Origin: an uncultured Lachnospiraceae bacterium
GTDB taxonomy: Bacteria; Bacillota; Clostridia; TANB77; CAG-508
Length of the DNA stretch: 64,000 nucleotides
Direction: 5' to 3'
NCBI GenBank assembly: GCA_964497325.1
Contig: CAZCCM010000001.1
Span: forward strand, 10,103-74,102
The position numbers were made by a program, and so were the translations under genes. The notes under the pieces are model-generated. The model was not told the origin of the DNA, did no database searches, and saw only the letters and a list, made by a program, of their open reading frames with translations. Shown here one piece after another: positions 9,937 through 20,929 of this stretch (position 1 is the first letter of the stretch; each line of letters opens with the position of its first letter).

Positions 9937-12870
9937 TTAATTATCCGGTTTTATTGAATTGTCTTCTTTAGAATTGATATTTTCATTATTATTTTCTCCA
10001 GTATTGATATTTACTGGATTAATTTCTCCTGAGCTAATATTTTCATTATTATTTTCTCCAGTATTGATATTTCCTTGATTAATTTCTCCTGAACTAATAT
10101 TTTCATTGTTATTTCCTTCAATATTAAAATTTTCACTTGATATTCCAGGATTGTCTATATCCGGATTGTTCATTAATTCTTCCAATTTATCTTTAAACCT
10201 TTTTACTTCTTTTTCTTTTTCTTTCAATTTACCATTTTCTAAAGAAATTCTTTCCTTTTCTAAACCCTTCAACCTTTTTTCTAAATCTTCTATAATATTT
10301 GTATTTTCAGATTTTTTTGCATCTTCAAGAGCTATTTTTACTATATTATAATTATCTTTTAAATTTGTATTTTCTTTTTCTATTTTTTCTAACTCATCCT
10401 CAGCTTTTCTTAATTTATCTTTTATTTTATTAAAGTTTTCTTGAATTTTAGGATTATCTACTTTGTAATCAGTTTCGCTAGAATTTTTTCCAAATTCAGG
10501 TTTATTAAGCTTGTACTCGCCATCATTAGTGTCTTTTCCAAATTCAGGATTTTTAATCTCATCCTCTAGCCCCTTAAATAAATCATCTAAGTCTTCCATG
10601 TTATGTTGTGATTCTGGAGCAGTTCTTTCACCTTGTTGTGAGACAGGATTATTTAATGTTTTTTCATTAATATCTCCATTTTCTTCACTGTATTCTTTTA
10701 ATGCCATGGCTACTTCTGAAGTTTTTAGAACATTTTGAACATTGTCATAGTCATATGTTAACTTCTTAATATCACTTTCTAAACCATTATATTGCTCCAT
10801 ATCTTCCATTTGTTTCTTTTCCATAATCATACTTCCAAAATTTCTACCTTCTAATGTATCAAAACTCTCTCCTAACATAGTTCCTTCTTTTGGAAGTTTT
10901 CCATTCATTAAACTTTCTTCTAAACGATATGCCATTACTGTTGCTTGAGCTTTTGTTAAACTCTTATCACTCATTACTTTTTCAAGATATTTTTTTCTTG
11001 CTTGTTCATATTCTTTTAATAATTTCCCCGAATTTGATTTATCTCCAACCATTCTGAACCAGCTTTGCATTTGATCTATTCCTTCTTGAGTTTCTAACTC
11101 TGGAACCTCTCCATTTATCATTTGATTTATTCCATATGAATTAATAGCTTCTTTTGCAGCATTTTTCGTATTTAATATATATCTATCTTTTTTATTCATT
11201 TTACCATATTTTTCATTTCTTTTACGTCTAGATTCTCGTCTTTTATCAAGCATTTCTCCTACATCTTTTGATGAATTTATTAATGCATAAGAAGTTAAAG
11301 CATCACCACTAGCAATTGACCATATTGCTCCACCTACAGTAGCTACATTCCTAATTAAATTTTTTGAATATAAATTATTTAATTTATTAAATACACTTTT
11401 TGGTTTACTTGTCTCTTTTAACTCAGGTATTTCATTTATTTTTTCATCTATTACTTTTGGATCAAGTTTAATGTTTTGCGTATTTTTAGTATCTTCTACA
11501 TTTGTATCAAAACTACCCACATTCTCTGCTGTATTTATATCTAAATCATTATTTGTTTCTATATTTTGAGATGTTGGTTCTTTAAGTTTAGGTGGTAATT
11601 TTGTGCTTTCTGTACTTCTTTCAAATAAACGAGGTTTTTCTTGTTTTTCAGCACTTCTTTTTAATCTTTCAGATGTCTTATCTAACATTCTATTAACCAT
11701 TGTTGCTTTTGCTAACTGTCCACCTGCTGGTAATTTTTCACCATCTGTTATATTAAATATTTGTCTAATTATTTTTTCACCTTCACCAATGAATCCTAAA
11801 CTCATAATAGCTATAATTGTACCAGGAATTGTAGAAGTGAATGTACCAAAAATGAAGTCTCCTCCTTCACCAACATCTACTGATATTTTAAAAGCAAGTG
11901 TAAAAAATACCGAAAAAATTAAAGCATGAAAGGTTTGTATAAAAACATTAAATATAAAGACATGCATCCAGGTATTTAATGCTTGCGATTTGTTATCTGC
12001 AATTTTATCTATTGAGTAAGTTATTGTAATTAAAGGTGAAATCATAATTAAAAATGCAATTTTAATCATTCTTTTTATATATATAAAAGTATATTTAAAT
12101 GTTTGTATTGTAATAGTTGCTAATATTATAGCAGATGAAAGTTGTCTAATAATATTTAAAGGTGTTAAAATATAACCCATCAGTTTTAAAATAGTAGCAG
12201 CAAAATCCATTCCATCTAAATTTGCCATAGATGCTTTTTCAATAATTCTAACTAAAATATTATTTCCAGTTATAGATGCTACAATTATTATACCTAATAA
12301 AGCAAGCAAAGCTAATGAAATCAACCAATTTACAAACATTTTATAATATTTAGCTCTTGATTGACCTGTGCTTGCTATTACTGCTCTAATAGAAATGTAT
12401 ATTAAAACGCCTAATAAAATTACTACAGAAATTCCTGATAAAGTTACAAACCATTTAGCAATTGCTGTTCTTAATGATAAGATATCTGATCCTCCTGTTG
12501 AAAAATCAAAAAAATCTATACTTAATATAGGTATTCTATTATAAAAAATATCTGCTGGTGTAACTATAAAACTTGTATTTCCAAGCAACTTAAATAATAA
12601 AGATAATATTAAGTAAGGAACAACAACAAATAATAGCCCTCCTATTGCTACAGGAATCCATAAGAATATTCCTAACAATCCATTTAACATTCCCATTATG
12701 ATGTCACCAGCTGTCTTTTGTACTCCTGAATTGTTTTCTAATTCAACCTCTGAATCTGATGCAAAACTACTATTATATGTCCCTACTAATGTTAAAATAA
12801 ACAAAAACATTATTATTATTTTTAATATTTTTTTTAAATTATATTTAAATAAATTTTTCTTTTTACTCAT
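9937..12870 (-). CDS. VirB6/TrbL-like polytopic T4SS membrane protein, paralog 1, with a long hydrophilic C-terminal tail
   Basis: 977 aa with a signal/TM, more than 8 TM helices, and the conserved motif 'ISPLITITYSIDKIADNKSQALNTWMHVFIFNVFIQTFHALIF' shared with the three neighbouring paralogs. The C-terminal ~550 aa is a charged coiled-coil ending in 20-aa repeats. Confidence 0.55.
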   Translation of the reverse strand: MSKKKNLFKYNLKKILKIIIMFLFILTLVGTYNSSFASDSEVELENNSGVQKTAGDIIMGMLNGLLGIFLWIPVAIGGLLFVVVPYLILSLLFKLLGNTSFIVTPADIFYNRIPILSIDFFDFSTGGSDILSLRTAIAKWFVTLSGISVVILLGVLIYISIRAVIASTGQSRAKYYKMFVNWLISLALLALLGIIIVASITGNNILVRIIEKASMANLDGMDFAATILKLMGYILTPLNIIRQLSSAIILATITIQTFKYTFIYIKRMIKIAFLIMISPLITITYSIDKIADNKSQALNTWMHVFIFNVFIQTFHALIFSVFFTLAFKISVDVGEGGDFIFGTFTSTIPGTIIAIMSLGFIGEGEKIIRQIFNITDGEKLPAGGQLAKATMVNRMLDKTSERLKRSAEKQEKPRLFERSTESTKLPPKLKEPTSQNIETNNDLDINTAENVGSFDTNVEDTKNTQNIKLDPKVIDEKINEIPELKETSKPKSVFNKLNNLYSKNLIRNVATVGGAIWSIASGDALTSYALINSSKDVGEMLDKRRESRRKRNEKYGKMNKKDRYILNTKNAAKEAINSYGINQMINGEVPELETQEGIDQMQSWFRMVGDKSNSGKLLKEYEQARKKYLEKVMSDKSLTKAQATVMAYRLEESLMNGKLPKEGTMLGESFDTLEGRNFGSMIMEKKQMEDMEQYNGLESDIKKLTYDYDNVQNVLKTSEVAMALKEYSEENGDINEKTLNNPVSQQGERTAPESQHNMEDLDDLFKGLEDEIKNPEFGKDTNDGEYKLNKPEFGKNSSETDYKVDNPKIQENFNKIKDKLRKAEDELEKIEKENTNLKDNYNIVKIALEDAKKSENTNIIEDLEKRLKGLEKERISLENGKLKEKEKEVKRFKDKLEELMNNPDIDNPGISSENFNIEGNNNENISSGEINQGNINTGENNNENISSGEINPVNINTGENNNENINSKEDNSIKPDN
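9974..10150. repeat. In-frame 60-bp tandem repeat x~3 in the 3' end of the 9937-12870 gene
   Basis: The 60-nt unit ('tttcattattattttctccagtattgatattt...') occurs at 9981, 10041 and 10101. It encodes 'GENNNENISSGEINxxNINT' x2.5. Confidence 0.7.
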
Positions 12871-12968
12871 TTCTTACCTTTATCTCTATTATTCTTACTT
12901 TTATCTTCATTTTTTTGTAACTTATTATATCTTATATCTTTTTTTATTAAGATTAAACTATAAATACA

Positions 12969-19696: not shown

Positions 19697-20929
19697 TATT
19701 TAAATTTTCCACCTTTTAAAAATTCTTCTGAAGATCTAATAACCATTAAATCTCTGGTATCAAATACTCCTTTTACTATTTTTTCTACTCTACCAAACAT
19801 TGATAGTAAAAATAGTCCTAAAATTGGGCTTGCCGACACAATTGCTCCTACACCCACTAAATACAAAAGATACATAAAACAATGAAGTGGTTGTAAAAAA
19901 TATGCATAAAAATATTCTCTATAAAATTTACTTAAAACTTGACTTTTATTATCTTTTAACTTATCAACAGCATATGTTACTGTTATTAAAGGAGCAATTA
20001 TTGTTAATAGCCCCAAAGAATAAAATCTCTTCAAATAAACTATTACAAATCTTATATAAATTACAATTAGTAATATATATGTTAAATTAGTCATTGCTGT
20101 ATTAAATGATCCTAAACTACCCCCACCTTTTCTTACAAGTATTTCAAAATTATTTTCATCAAAAGAATTAATTACTCCAACTCTTGCTTTTGAAAACACT
20201 TTCACAATTACATCATTTAAACCAGTAATCATTGCTAGTATAAAAGGTAATGTAAAAACCATAATAAAAGATATAACAACATTTATCATCGTATTTTTTA
20301 TATTTGCATGTTTTTGAGGAGTTCTTAACCCTGCATAAACTAAAATCATATTTATAGCCAAATATATCATTACTCCGCAATAAAAGTATAATTGCTATTC
20401 CAGCCATAACTACATACCATTTTGCAACATTTACTTTAATAAGAGTATTTAAATCTGTCTTATTTGAATCAAAATCAAAAAAATTAGCATTTAAAAGCTC
20501 TATATCTCCAAAAAACAATTTATCCAACGTGAAATTCTTTGTATACTCCTCTTTATTTATAAAATCATTATTATCAGTGCCAGGATAATTTACAACTTTT
20601 TCATTTACAAAGGTACTAATCATTTTATCTATAACAATTCCAAAAACTTTCCCAATCATAATAAAAATATTAGGAATAAGCATTAAAATAGCTTGTCCTG
20701 CTCCAATTGGTTCAGGAGCACTATCCTGTTTCATTTTTGAAGTTCCAGAAAATAATAAATTTTTATAAAAATCATCACTAGGTTTAATATCTTTATCTTC
20801 TTTTTTGCTGTTTTTTATTTCACTTTTAGTTATATCTTCAGCATAGGAAATATTAATCGGATATATAAAATCAACTACAAAAATTACTAATAATATAACT
20901 ACAATTAATTTTATAATTTTTTTATTCAT
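19696..20929 (-). pseudogene. VirB6-like paralog 4 interrupted by a frameshift (ORFs 20929..20213 and 20370..19696 overlap)
   Basis: The upstream ORF carries 'NANFFDFDSNKTDLNTLIKVNVAKWYVVMAGIAII' and the downstream ORF carries 'IIAPLITVTYAVDKLKDNKSQVLSKFYREYFYAYFLQPLHCFMYLLY'. Both are collinear with intact paralogs. The reading frame shifts by one nucleotide around 20374-20377 ('TTGCGGAGTAATGATA'). Confidence 0.55.

What the first reader, a model, noticed from the sequence alone, without database searches (positions are those of the whole stretch)
9937..20929. Tandem expansion of four VirB6-like polytopic membrane proteins sharing the motif SPL(I/V)x(I/V)TY..DNKSQ..W..F..IQ..HA..Y
Three intact genes (977, 737 and 1064 aa) and one frameshifted gene sit head to tail. 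They share an N-terminal secreted segment with 'FFDFD/AKW(F/Y)V' and a conserved polytopic core. The intact ones have C-terminal hydrophilic extensions of 300-550 aa. Multiplied VirB6 paralogs with giant extensions are the hallmark of the Rickettsiales rvh system, and seeing the same theme in a low-GC monoderm-type locus is unexpected.
Basis: partly seen in the sequence, partly recalled or inferred. Interest (0 to 1): 0.6.

Follow-up and report, generated by a model that had tools for sequence, protein, structure and literature searches.

The report
Tandem VirB6-like genes in chromosomal T4SS
Four neighbouring genes encode very divergent copies of VirB6, the membrane platform protein of type IV secretion machines, and they belong to a chromosomal machine with several pilin genes and no DNA-transfer genes nearby that is conserved in hundreds of uncultured gut Clostridia.

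Summary
Four head-to-tail paralogs lie at 9937-20929 on the minus strand: 977, 737 and 1064 aa, plus one gene broken by a single extra base. They are 25-29% identical over a 230-440 aa polytopic core. The frameshift is real: an independent assembly has the same sequence.

The genes sit in an operon-like cluster at about 8279-26478: four VirB2-like pilins, PrgI/VirB3, TrsD-like protein, VirB4, VirB6-like array and accessory genes. Housekeeping genes flank it. No relaxase or coupling protein was found in the window or beside 81 related loci.

At least 208 species-level genomes encode relatives. All 81 retrieved loci carry a VirB6-like gene, usually 2-5 in tandem. Related Clostridium plasmids carry one copy. 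The anatomy most resembles the Patescibacteria T4SS, with Rickettsiales-like VirB6 multiplication. Function is inferred, not shown.

The parts
9937..12870 (-). VirB6-like paralog p977, 'tailed' class. It has a signal peptide, a pilin-like hairpin, a conserved C-module (core aa 95-380) and a 597-aa acidic, N-rich tail.
12969..15182 (-). VirB6-like paralog p737, a divergent second 'tailed' copy. The 379-aa tail is 20% lysine.
   Evidence: 29% identity to p977, E 6e-31. Sub-threshold hit to NF045889 Mbov_0396 ICE membrane protein covering 49-305 of 306 profile positions.
15163..18357 (-). VirB6-like paralog p1064, 'N-extended' class: signal peptide, M23 peptidase ectodomain, VirB6-like core (aa 382-636), 428-aa lysine-rich tail.
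17737..18027 (-). Peptidase_M23 (peptidoglycan endopeptidase) domain of p1064, aa 111-207.
   Evidence: PF01551 E 1.9e-26; NCBIfam peptidoglycan hydrolase families. None of the VirB6-like proteins in the 81 related loci has this domain, so the fusion is seen only in this genome.
18398..19696 (-). Conserved accessory gene (432 aa, N-terminal membrane anchor, no known domain) lying between the short and the N-extended paralog.
   Evidence: No Pfam or NCBIfam hit. Orthologs are in 62 of 81 related loci, in most of them at the same position.
19696..20929 (-). Short, tail-less VirB6-like paralog broken by a one-base insertion near 20375. It reads as two ORFs, 20213-20929 and 19696-20370, and reconstructs to 410 aa.
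   Evidence: The sequence is identical in an independent assembly. Intact orthologs of about 370-440 aa occur in most related loci.
20922..22874 (-). VirB4 ATPase (650 aa), lacking the usual N-terminal domain.
   Evidence: P-loop_TraG 2.7e-19; NF045971 CD1110-family VirB4 1.6e-58; NF045975 2.6e-56. It is 40% identical to plasmid homologs in C. botulinum and C. beijerinckii.
22890..24074 (-). TrsD-like protein (394 aa), equivalent to the N-terminal domain of VirB4 as a separate gene.
   Evidence: It matches positions 103-304 of the NF045975 VirB4 model. Orthologs carry PF26593 TraC-like, and the split is conserved in related loci.
24076..24408 (-). PrgI/VirB3-like small membrane protein (110 aa).
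   Evidence: PF12666 PrgI E 1.1e-4, below the gathering score. Conserved position next to the TrsD-like gene and VirB4.
24411..24836 (-). VirB2-like T4SS pilin (141 aa), first gene of the minus-strand operon.
   Evidence: PF18895 T4SS_pilin E 6.7e-6, 26.5 bits against a cutoff of 26.6.
25190..26478 (+). Three divergently transcribed VirB2-like pilin genes (25190-25570, 25604-25975, 26104-26478).
   Evidence: PF18895 E 3.6e-6, 7.1e-10 and 8.1e-11; PF04956 TrbC/VirB2 down to 2.7e-7. Arrays of two or three such pilin genes lie upstream in related loci where the flank reaches that far.
8279..9857 (-). Two conserved membrane-anchored accessory genes (193 aa at 9276-9857; 313 aa at 8279-9220) that share a domain and close the cluster. 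A VirB8-like role is possible but untested.
   Evidence: Mutual similarity E 1.4e-5. Present in 69 and 73 of 81 loci at the same position. No Pfam or PDB sequence match.
15233..15460 (-). Tandem 33-nt repeats encoding 11-aa lysine/asparagine-rich repeats in the p1064 tail. Similar 30/60-nt repeats lie at 9965-10125 in the p977 tail.
   Evidence: translations.

Best explanation
The four genes encode highly divergent members of the VirB6 family, the polytopic membrane platform or channel subunit of type IV secretion systems.

Each protein has four parts:
- a cleavable signal peptide followed by a variable ectodomain (an M23 cell-wall peptidase in the 1064-aa copy);
- a two-helix module homologous to the locus's own VirB2-like pilins;
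- a conserved C-terminal helical module (YIKR...ISPLITITYSIDK..DxKSQALNTW..IQPFH..Y);
- in three of them, a fast-evolving, repeat-containing, mostly basic tail.

They belong to one chromosomal gene cluster (about 8279-26478). The cluster also encodes four VirB2-like pilins, a VirB3/PrgI-like protein, a split VirB4 (TrsD-like protein plus ATPase) and three conserved accessory proteins. No relaxase or coupling ATPase is nearby.

Inferred mechanism, by analogy with the R388 structure: VirB4 extracts pilins from the membrane, and a ring of VirB6-like subunits serves as the base on which the pilins polymerise and through which substrate passes.

The paralogs are old, specialised classes and probably work together, perhaps as a mixed ring. 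The short class would be the plain platform subunit. The N-extended class would bring a wall-cutting or other ectodomain, the VirB1 role. The tailed class would contribute long, probably cytoplasmic tails that could dock partners in place of a coupling protein.

Shown: paralogy, domain layout, fold similarity, pilin homology, cluster conservation, chromosomal context.
Inferred: co-assembly, pilus production, tail topology, and what is transported.
For: - Paralogy: 25-29% identity, E down to 6e-31.
- Pilin module: hhalign of the family core against 71 pilins from these loci gives probability 91%, E 9.7e-7 over 102 columns. The reversed control scores 19 against 49. Pilins against PrgH or pLS20 p49 stay at control level. 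26 of 35 members give sub-threshold PF18895 hits in the same segment. The same relation is published for CedA/CedA1 and for A. tumefaciens VirB6/VirB2 (PMC9905601).
- Weak but consistent sequence links to proteins called putative VirB6. 15 of 18 members hit NF045889, the Mbov_0396 family (best E 7e-7). Its name places it next to the VirB4 family Mbov_0397; I infer it is mycoplasma ICE CDS16, which PMC12857230 calls 'likely VirB6-like'. 4 of 18 hit NF045890 (pLS20_p028). That protein lies directly after VirD4 in pLS20, so I equate it with gene 49, the 'putative extended-VirB6' of PMC8557374. hhalign against that family is colinear over 241 columns, P 0.011.
- Context: pilins, PrgI-like, TrsD-like and VirB4 genes lie directly upstream in one tightly packed strand.
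- Conservation: relatives in 208 species-level genomes. All 81 loci examined have the same gene order, usually with 2-5 tandem paralogs.
- Chromosomal context with no transfer genes: Mfd, NrdD, MurD-like, PBPs, RuvA, MreCD, MscL and MscS flank the cluster. phmmer with four coupling proteins and three relaxases finds nothing in the window or the 81 loci, while VirB4 is found as a positive control.
- Related Clostridium plasmids carry the same module with a single VirB6-like gene. One has a coupling-protein gene 12 kb away.
Against: - No significant sequence similarity to Pfam TrbL/VirB6 families, PDB sequences, the PrgH family or TcpH.
- The two models share much of their alignment, so they are not fully independent.
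- NCBIfam hits are all below the curated cutoffs.
- Co-assembly, pilus formation and tail topology were not tested. Counting hydrophobic helices gives an ambiguous topology.
- Coupling protein and relaxase were searched only in 64 kb here and within 10 kb of each related locus.
- One of the four copies is broken in this genome.
Confidence: 0.75

Rival explanations
1. The proteins are not VirB6 equivalents. They are oversized pilin-family proteins: a VirB2-like module fused to a membrane anchor and tail, serving as minor, base or tip subunits of the pilus. The true channel subunit would be something else, or absent.
For: The strongest sequence signal of the family is to VirB2-like pilins (hhalign E 9.7e-7; PF18895 in 26 of 35 members). 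There is no sequence match to TrbL or PrgH. In some genomes the short paralog is split exactly between the pilin-like module and the C-module (L014/L026, L036/L037).
Against: The whole core, not only the hairpin, superposes on TrwI (218-234 of 261 residues) and on DotA. An N-terminal pilin-like region is itself a published property of VirB6/CedA (PMC9905601). No other polytopic candidate for VirB6 exists in the cluster.
Confidence: 0.12
2. The cluster is the mating-pair-formation module of an ordinary integrated conjugative element. Relaxase, coupling protein and integrase lie elsewhere, and the paralogs are redundant duplicates.
For: The nearest annotated relatives of the VirB4 are on Clostridium plasmids (40% identity), with a coupling-protein gene 12 kb from the module in C. 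beijerinckii. The flanking genes of the cluster are not conserved between genomes.
Against: Housekeeping genes lie on both sides. There is no integrase, tRNA, flanking direct repeat or GC anomaly. No coupling protein or relaxase occurs in 64 kb here or within 10 kb of any of 81 loci. There are no relatives in 2.9 million viral contigs, and no DNA match to the region or tblastn match to the short paralog's C-terminal ORF in plasmids or phages. The paralog classes are old and conserved, not redundant recent copies.
Confidence: 0.1
3. The array is a decaying remnant, with pseudogenes accumulating in a defunct secretion locus.
For: One paralog carries a fixed frameshift. The short paralog is also split in other lineages. 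The tails are low-complexity and unalignable.
Against: Three long ORFs of 737-1064 aa and all other cluster genes are intact. The core is conserved with invariant residues across 69 aligned sequences and across 4,424 clusters at 50% identity. Gene order is preserved in 81 loci.
Confidence: 0.03

Closest known systems
VirB6 / TrwI (R388) and DotA (Legionella Dot/Icm): the T4SS inner-membrane platform subunit
   Same: Polytopic helical protein encoded beside VirB4, VirB3 and VirB2. It is the best structural match of both models. The N-terminal part is related to the cognate pilin, as reported for VirB6/VirB2 and CedA/CedA1.
   Different: No detectable sequence similarity to Pfam TrbL or to PrgH. 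A cleavable signal peptide with variable ectodomains. Two to five paralogs instead of one. Monoderm context without VirB5, 7, 9 or 10.
Rickettsiales Rvh system: multiplied, extended VirB6 paralogs
   Same: Several tandem VirB6-like genes with very large hydrophilic extensions, in a chromosomal, non-conjugative T4SS of organisms with reduced genomes. Pilin genes are also multiplied (PMC7648143 and PMC12102498, from the literature).
   Different: Unrelated lineage (monoderm Clostridia against diderm Alphaproteobacteria), so the theme arose independently. One copy here is fused to a cell-wall peptidase. The tails here are short by comparison (0.4-0.6 kaa against up to about 4 kaa).
Patescibacteria (CPR) T4SS, essential for epibiotic growth of Saccharibacteria
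   Same: Chromosomal, MPF_FATA-like. It has a TrsD-like protein plus VirB4, PrgI, arrays of divergent VirB2-like pilins (PF18895/PF04956) and usually no relaxase nearby (PMC12102498). The window has each of these.
   Different: The host is a Clostridia lineage, not Patescibacteria. Most of the VirB6 homologs reported there were found with the canonical VirB6 profile, which this family does not match. Tandem VirB6 arrays are not described there. Placement of this VirB4 in the Patescibacteria clade was not tested.
Extended VirB6 of Gram-positive conjugation systems (pLS20 gene 49 / NF045890 / DUF8208; TcpH; mycoplasma ICE CDS16 / NF045889)
   Same: N-terminal polytopic domain plus a long hydrophilic C-terminal region. 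Shared 'NFFD...KW' start of the core. Weak, colinear profile similarity.
   Different: All hits are below family cutoffs. Those systems are conjugative, single-copy, and sit beside a coupling protein and relaxase.
Archaeal Ced/Ted DNA-import systems and Helicobacter ComB (domesticated T4SS without relaxase)
   Same: A minimal VirB2 + VirB6 + VirB4 set on the chromosome with no relaxase. For Ced/Ted this is from PMC9905601; ComB is from general knowledge. The VirB4 gives weak hits to CedB and CedD models.
   Different: No evidence here for direction of transport. The gene content is more elaborate (pilin and VirB6 arrays, hydrolase fusion).

Membership tests
VirB6 (T4SS platform/channel subunit) | Polytopic membrane protein with five or more hydrophobic helices | tested here: met
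   Hydropathy finds 6-8 hydrophobic helices per paralog. The AlphaFold models are all-helical with long hydrophobic helices.
VirB6 (T4SS platform/channel subunit) | Encoded in a T4SS cluster next to VirB4, VirB3 and VirB2 | tested here: met
   Directly downstream of VirB4, the TrsD-like gene, the PrgI-like gene and the pilins. The order is conserved in 81 loci.
VirB6 (T4SS platform/channel subunit) | Sequence match to TrbL/VirB6 profiles (PF04610, TrbL_2-4) or to solved VirB6 sequences | tested here: not met
   No Pfam TrbL hit at E<0.1 in 35 members; one TrbL_4 hit at 0.28. A profile search of PDB sequences returns only low-complexity noise. hhalign against the PrgH family gives P 0.32, equal to the reversed control.
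VirB6 (T4SS platform/channel subunit) | Fold similarity to solved VirB6 structures | tested here: met
VirB6 (T4SS platform/channel subunit) | N-terminal region homologous to the cognate VirB2-type pilin (reported for CedA/CedA1 and VirB6/VirB2, PMC9905601) | tested here: met
   hhalign probability 91%, E 9.7e-7, with negative controls. phmmer of pilins also hits the plasmid VirB6-like protein.
VirB6 (T4SS platform/channel subunit) | Forms a pentameric ring contacting VirB4 and the pilin | not testable with these tools
   Only monomer prediction was available.
Extended VirB6 / Rvh-like multiplied VirB6 | Large hydrophilic extension beyond the polytopic core | tested here: met
   Tails of 379-597 aa and an N-terminal extension of about 380 aa in p1064.
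Extended VirB6 / Rvh-like multiplied VirB6 | Several paralogs in tandem within one system | tested here: met
   Four here. In 81 related loci there are 2-5, except one short contig with a single gene.
pLS20_p028 (gene 49) / Mbov_0396 (ICE CDS16) families | Score above the curated NCBIfam cutoff | tested here: not met
   Best E 2.6e-7 and 7.3e-7, but the bit scores are far below the cutoffs. hhalign P 0.011. These are remote relatives at most, not members.
Patescibacteria-type (non-conjugative, pilin-array) T4SS | TrsD-like protein separate from VirB4, plus a PrgI-like protein | tested here: met
Patescibacteria-type (non-conjugative, pilin-array) T4SS | Array of divergent VirB2-like pilins near virB4 | tested here: met
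   Four pilin genes, PF18895/PF04956.
Patescibacteria-type (non-conjugative, pilin-array) T4SS | Chromosomal, no relaxase near the cluster | tested here: met
   The test covers only 64 kb here and 10 kb on each side elsewhere.
Patescibacteria-type (non-conjugative, pilin-array) T4SS | VirB4 falls in the Patescibacteria VirB4 clade | not tested
   No reference set was available. The nearest annotated homologs found are on Clostridium plasmids.
Conjugative MPF_FATA T4SS | Coupling protein (VirD4/TcpA) and relaxase associated with the cluster | tested here: not met
   phmmer with PcfC, pLS20 VirD4, TcpA, the C. beijerinckii T4CP, PcfG, MobL and TcpM gave no hit in the window or the 81 loci.

The most novel reading that the evidence does not exclude
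A coupling-protein-less T4SS has been domesticated as a vertically kept organelle of a large, uncultured, small-genome clade of gut Clostridia. It carries both a VirB2 pilin array and an array of specialised VirB6 subunits that co-assemble into a mixed ring: plain, hydrolase-bearing and tail-bearing. It would be used for cell-to-cell contact or uptake rather than conjugation. That would make it a second monoderm example beside Patescibacteria, and an independent re-invention of the Rickettsiales VirB6 multiplication.
Probability: 0.3. Interest if true: 0.85.

Novelty: new variant of a known kind. Interest (0 to 1): 0.62.

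Why it matters
A 2025 T4SS review (PMC12857230) states that VirB2 pilins are absent from Gram-positive T4SSs, with Patescibacteria as the one exception. It also states that nearly all known Gram-positive T4SS functions are conjugative DNA transfer.

This locus shows a pilin-bearing T4SS with no relaxase or coupling protein in view, fixed in the chromosomes of hundreds of gut Clostridia species. Its VirB6 component is multiplied and elaborated in the way otherwise known from obligate intracellular Rickettsiales.

The family has no Pfam or NCBIfam model, although it comprises more than 4,400 clusters at 50% identity. 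Standard T4SS finders will therefore miss the VirB6 component.

The clear homology between these VirB6-like cores and their own pilins gives unusually good material for testing whether VirB2 and VirB6 derive from one another.

If the hosts are the TANB77/CAG-508 group, as names such as CAG:793 suggest (from memory, unverified), they are uncultured gut bacteria that have attracted clinical interest (PMC11680825). A contact-dependent machine might then help explain why they resist cultivation.

Tried and rejected
- Megablast of 9000-25000 against plasmids, and tblastn of the short paralog's C-terminal ORF against plasmids and phages: no match.
- Profile of the family against PDB sequences: only low-complexity noise from the tails.
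- Pfam on all members: no TrbL.
- hhalign against single PrgH and TcpH sequences, and against a 42-member PrgH alignment: nothing above a reversed control.
- The AlphaFold-database Foldseek library was not available.
- The exhaustive representative search lists only the best 150 of 4,424 hits. All were close relatives, so it could not bridge to annotated families.
- The tails have no BLAST similarity to each other or to 178 homolog tails, so modelling a tail domain was dropped.
Its profile finds nothing in PDB sequences, so the VirB8-like idea stays untested.
- Promoter and terminator scans were no better than shuffles in this AT-rich DNA.
- No tRNA, no Rfam family, no flanking att-like repeats.
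- No relatives in viral contigs.
- The published TANB77 'pilin' cluster (PMC11680825) is a Tad pilus, a different system.
- The idea that the frameshift is an assembly error was rejected by an identical independent assembly.
- TGA-as-tryptophan recoding was considered because of the low GC. It was rejected because ORFs of up to 2,429 aa are open in table 11.

Full report
**1. What is in the sequence**

The window is about 25% GC, and nearly all genes are on the minus strand. At the reported coordinates there are three long ORFs: 9937-12870 (977 aa), 12969-15182 (737 aa) and 15163-18357 (1064 aa). There is also a gene read as two overlapping ORFs, 20213-20929 and 19696-20370. An unrelated 432-aa ORF (18398-19696) separates the split gene from the others.

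Removing one base near 20375 joins the two ORFs into a 410-aa protein that is colinear with the other three. All six pairwise BLASTP comparisons are significant, at 25-29% identity and E 2e-13 to 6e-31. The shared core is about 280 residues.

The residues invariant across the family are L274, P279, W301, Q312, F360 and F372 in p977 numbering.

The exact VirB4 protein of this window occurs on 13 contigs from other sequencing runs. In one of them (L085, SRR33579954) the frameshift region is base-for-base identical. The broken gene is therefore a real state of this species, not an assembly error.

**2. Anatomy of the proteins**

Each protein starts with a Sec-type signal peptide (…FAS|D, …LAF|S, …SYA|E). 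The rest follows in order:
- a variable acidic segment;
- a hydrophobic helix;
- the segment 'FN…I.S.NFF';
- a helix 'IAKW(F/Y)(V/Y)…';
- a short loop rich in K/R and Y;
- a second helix and a variable loop;
- the conserved block 'YIKR…F L I. I (A/S) P L I T I T Y S I D K.. D. K S Q A L N T W … I Q P F H.. I Y … A E. I I K. I F'.

In the 1064-aa protein the segment after the signal peptide is a Peptidase_M23 domain (E 1.9e-26). This fixes that end outside the cell. None of the VirB6-like proteins in the 81 related loci carries this domain. One ortholog has a weak NlpC/P60 match instead.

The three tails are K/E/N-rich and contain 11-aa and about 20-aa tandem repeats. They have no BLAST similarity to one another or to 178 homolog tails.

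Family-wide charge counts give the following:
- The N-terminal segment and the loops before and after the pilin-like hairpin are acidic.
- 'YIKR' and the 40 residues after the last helix are basic.
- 79% of 181 tails are net positive.

This favours an N-out, C-in topology like that reported for A. tumefaciens VirB6. The helix count is ambiguous, however, and in R388 most 'hydrophobic helices' of VirB6 are not in the membrane at all (PMC12857230). I therefore regard the tail location as unsettled.

**3. The surrounding locus**

Upstream on the same strand, with gaps of 15 bases or less or short overlaps, lie:
- VirB4 (20922-22874; CD1110-family model 1.6e-58);
- a 394-aa protein matching only the N-terminal domain of VirB4 (22890-24074; TrsD-like, orthologs carry PF26593);
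- a PrgI/VirB3-like protein (24076-24408);
- a T4SS pilin (24411-24836).

Three more VirB2-like pilin genes are transcribed divergently at 25190-26478 (PF18895 down to 8e-11, PF04956 down to 2.7e-7). Downstream are two membrane-anchored proteins of 193 and 313 aa that share a domain.

Everything outside 8279-26478 is housekeeping. One side has MscL, a DUF4364 protein, a SpoU methylase, Mfd, NrdD, a MurD-like ligase, MgsA, cyclophilins, RuvA, a PBP, MreC, MreD and RadC. The other has a DnaJ-domain protein, a PASTA-containing PBP and MscS.

The window contains no tRNA, integrase, GC anomaly or flanking direct repeat. phmmer with four coupling proteins and three relaxases from pCF10, pLS20, pCW3 and a C. 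beijerinckii plasmid finds nothing in the window.

**4. Relatives**

A word-seeded search found 60 homologs at 48% identity or less. None has a Pfam domain or a name. An exhaustive profile search found 4,424 clusters at 50% identity with E≤1e-3 and 2,872 with E≤1e-30.

A scan of GTDB species representatives found relatives in 208 genomes. Most of the 79 distinct loci kept come from gut MAGs labelled uncultured Clostridia or Clostridium sp., from human (Hadza), rabbit, mouse, ruminant and chicken samples. They include Clostridium sp. CAG:793, Candidatus Scatovivens and a closed 1.8-Mb chromosome.

In all 81 loci examined the gene order is the same: [2-3 pilins] pilin, PrgI-like, TrsD-like, VirB4, short VirB6-like, one or two orf432-like genes, N-extended VirB6-like (about 900-2180 aa), one to three tailed VirB6-like, orf193, orf313. 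The number of VirB6-like ORFs per locus is 3 in 35 loci, 2 in 21, 4 in 20 and 5 in 4. These counts include split genes, and some loci are cut at a contig end.

Classes are old. Short copies match the window's split gene best (57 of 65) and tailed copies match p977 (103 of 118). No locus has a coupling protein or relaxase within 10 kb. Flanking genes are not conserved between genomes. There are no relatives in viral contigs.

The window's VirB4 is 40% identical to proteins on C. botulinum (p12/29 and five similar plasmids) and C. beijerinckii plasmids. Those plasmids carry the same module (pilin, small protein, TrsD-like, VirB4) followed by a single tailed VirB6-like protein of 864-896 aa (core HMM 1e-17 and 6e-11). 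The C. beijerinckii plasmid has a coupling-protein gene 12 kb upstream.

The multiplied arrays thus look like an elaboration of a plasmid-type module after it settled in these chromosomes.

**5. Are they VirB6?**

By sequence, no:
- No TrbL Pfam hit.
- Nothing in PDB sequences.
- Nothing against PrgH, which does hit TrbL, as a family profile.
- Nothing against TcpH.

There are weak, consistent signals to two families that the literature calls putative VirB6:
- 15 of 18 members hit NF045889 (Mbov_0396 family), best E 7e-7. By its name it sits next to the VirB4 family Mbov_0397, so I infer it is mycoplasma ICE CDS16, which the review calls 'likely the VirB6-like component'.
- 4 of 18 hit NF045890 (pLS20_p028). 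In the pLS20 record this is the 974-aa protein immediately after VirD4. I equate it with gene 49, the 'putative extended-VirB6' of PMC8557374.

All of these hits are below the curated cutoffs. hhalign against a pLS20_p028 alignment is colinear over 241 columns but only P 0.011, against 0.39 for the reversed control.

By structure, yes, at moderate strength:

By a third, independent criterion, also yes. The N-terminal half of the core (NFF…AKWYY helix, basic loop, second helix) is homologous to the VirB2-like pilins of these same loci. hhalign gives probability 91% and E 9.7e-7. The reversed control scores 19 against 49, and the pilins against PrgH or pLS20 p49 stay at control level. Beltran et al. 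reported exactly this relation for archaeal CedA (VirB6-like) and CedA1 (pilin), and more weakly for A. tumefaciens VirB6 and VirB2 (PMC9905601).

Together with gene position, I conclude that these proteins are VirB6-family proteins of a very divergent, unmodelled subfamily.

**6. How it probably works (inference)**

In the R388 model a VirB6 pentamer is the base on which VirB2 pilins, extracted from the membrane, polymerise, and through which substrate is thought to pass (PMC12857230). This locus has the parts for such a machine in a monoderm: pilins, VirB3, TrsD plus VirB4, VirB6-like proteins and a wall hydrolase domain.

The conserved coexistence of a plain short copy, an N-extended copy and one to three tailed copies suggests division of labour and probably co-assembly. 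The M23 fusion would provide the local wall opening that a separate hydrolase (PrgK, TcpG, CwlT) provides in known Gram-positive systems.

The basic, repeat-bearing tails, if cytoplasmic, could recruit partners in a system that lacks a coupling protein. If they are external, they would be variable surface structures, as has been proposed for the extended VirB6 proteins of Rickettsiales (from general knowledge).

What is transported is unknown. The absence of relaxase and coupling protein, and the chromosomal fixation, parallel the Patescibacteria T4SS, which is essential for epibiotic growth, and the DNA-import systems Ced/Ted and ComB.

The short copy is broken in this species. In two other lineages it is split between the pilin-like and C-terminal modules (L014/L026, L036/L037). 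The short class may therefore be dispensable when other copies are present, or it may function in two pieces.

**7. Novelty**

I found no description of this system:
- The only paper in the library that holds both 'TANB77' and 'type IV secretion' is an unrelated review.
- The Patescibacteria paper and the 2025 review treat pilin-bearing monoderm T4SSs as a Patescibacteria peculiarity.
- Tandem VirB6 arrays are discussed only for Rickettsiales.
- The TANB77 'pilin' paper concerns a Tad pilus.

The assignment of these genomes to TANB77/CAG-508 rests on my memory of GTDB names and was not tested. NCBI labels say only Clostridia.

I classify the finding as a new variant of a known kind: VirB6 within a T4SS. 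Its wider interest comes from the system it belongs to.

Noticed in passing
window 1-4024 (-), ORF runs off the left end: A protein of more than 1341 aa ends in a weak glucosaminidase match and a clear NlpC/P60 domain (E 1.1e-10). This two-enzyme layout resembles the cell-wall hydrolases of Gram-positive conjugation systems such as CwlT. It lies 4 kb beyond the cluster, separated from it by DnaJ-domain, PBP and MscS genes.
   Followed up: partly
L014 3751-4933, L026, L036, L037 9172-10420: In four species representatives from two lineages, the short VirB6-like gene is split into two ORFs in different frames. The break lies exactly between the pilin-like module and the conserved C-module. Related species share the same split, which suggests a two-polypeptide form or a tolerated pseudogene.
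   Followed up: partly
L087 (C. botulinum p12/29, 9247-19906) and L088 (C. beijerinckii p1, 12095-22799): Large Clostridium plasmids typed 'non-mobilizable' carry a related module: VirB2-like pilin, small protein, TrsD-like, VirB4, one VirB6-like protein, and a protein annotated as a C39 family peptidase. Pilin-bearing T4SS modules therefore also exist on plasmids of cultured Clostridium species.
   Followed up: partly
window 43153-55513 (-): Two adjacent giant ORFs of 2429 aa (no Pfam match) and 1696 aa (SdrD B-like and carboxypeptidase-regulatory-like repeats). They are probably surface proteins or adhesins.
   Followed up: no
window 8279-9857 (-): The 193-aa and 313-aa membrane-anchored proteins that close the cluster share a domain (E 1.4e-5) and are present in about 70 of 81 loci.
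   Followed up: partly
window 9965-10125 and 15233-15460: In-frame tandem DNA repeats (30/60 nt and 33 nt) lie in the tails of two paralogs. They could change tail length by slippage.
   Followed up: no
window 37315-38979 (-): A 554-aa ORF with no Pfam match lies between a MurD-like ligase gene and mgsA.
   Followed up: no
whole window: GC skew is negative in all 2-kb windows but one, and almost all genes are on the minus strand. This is consistent with one replichore read against the direction of replication. No tRNA or Rfam RNA occurs in 64 kb.
   Followed up: no
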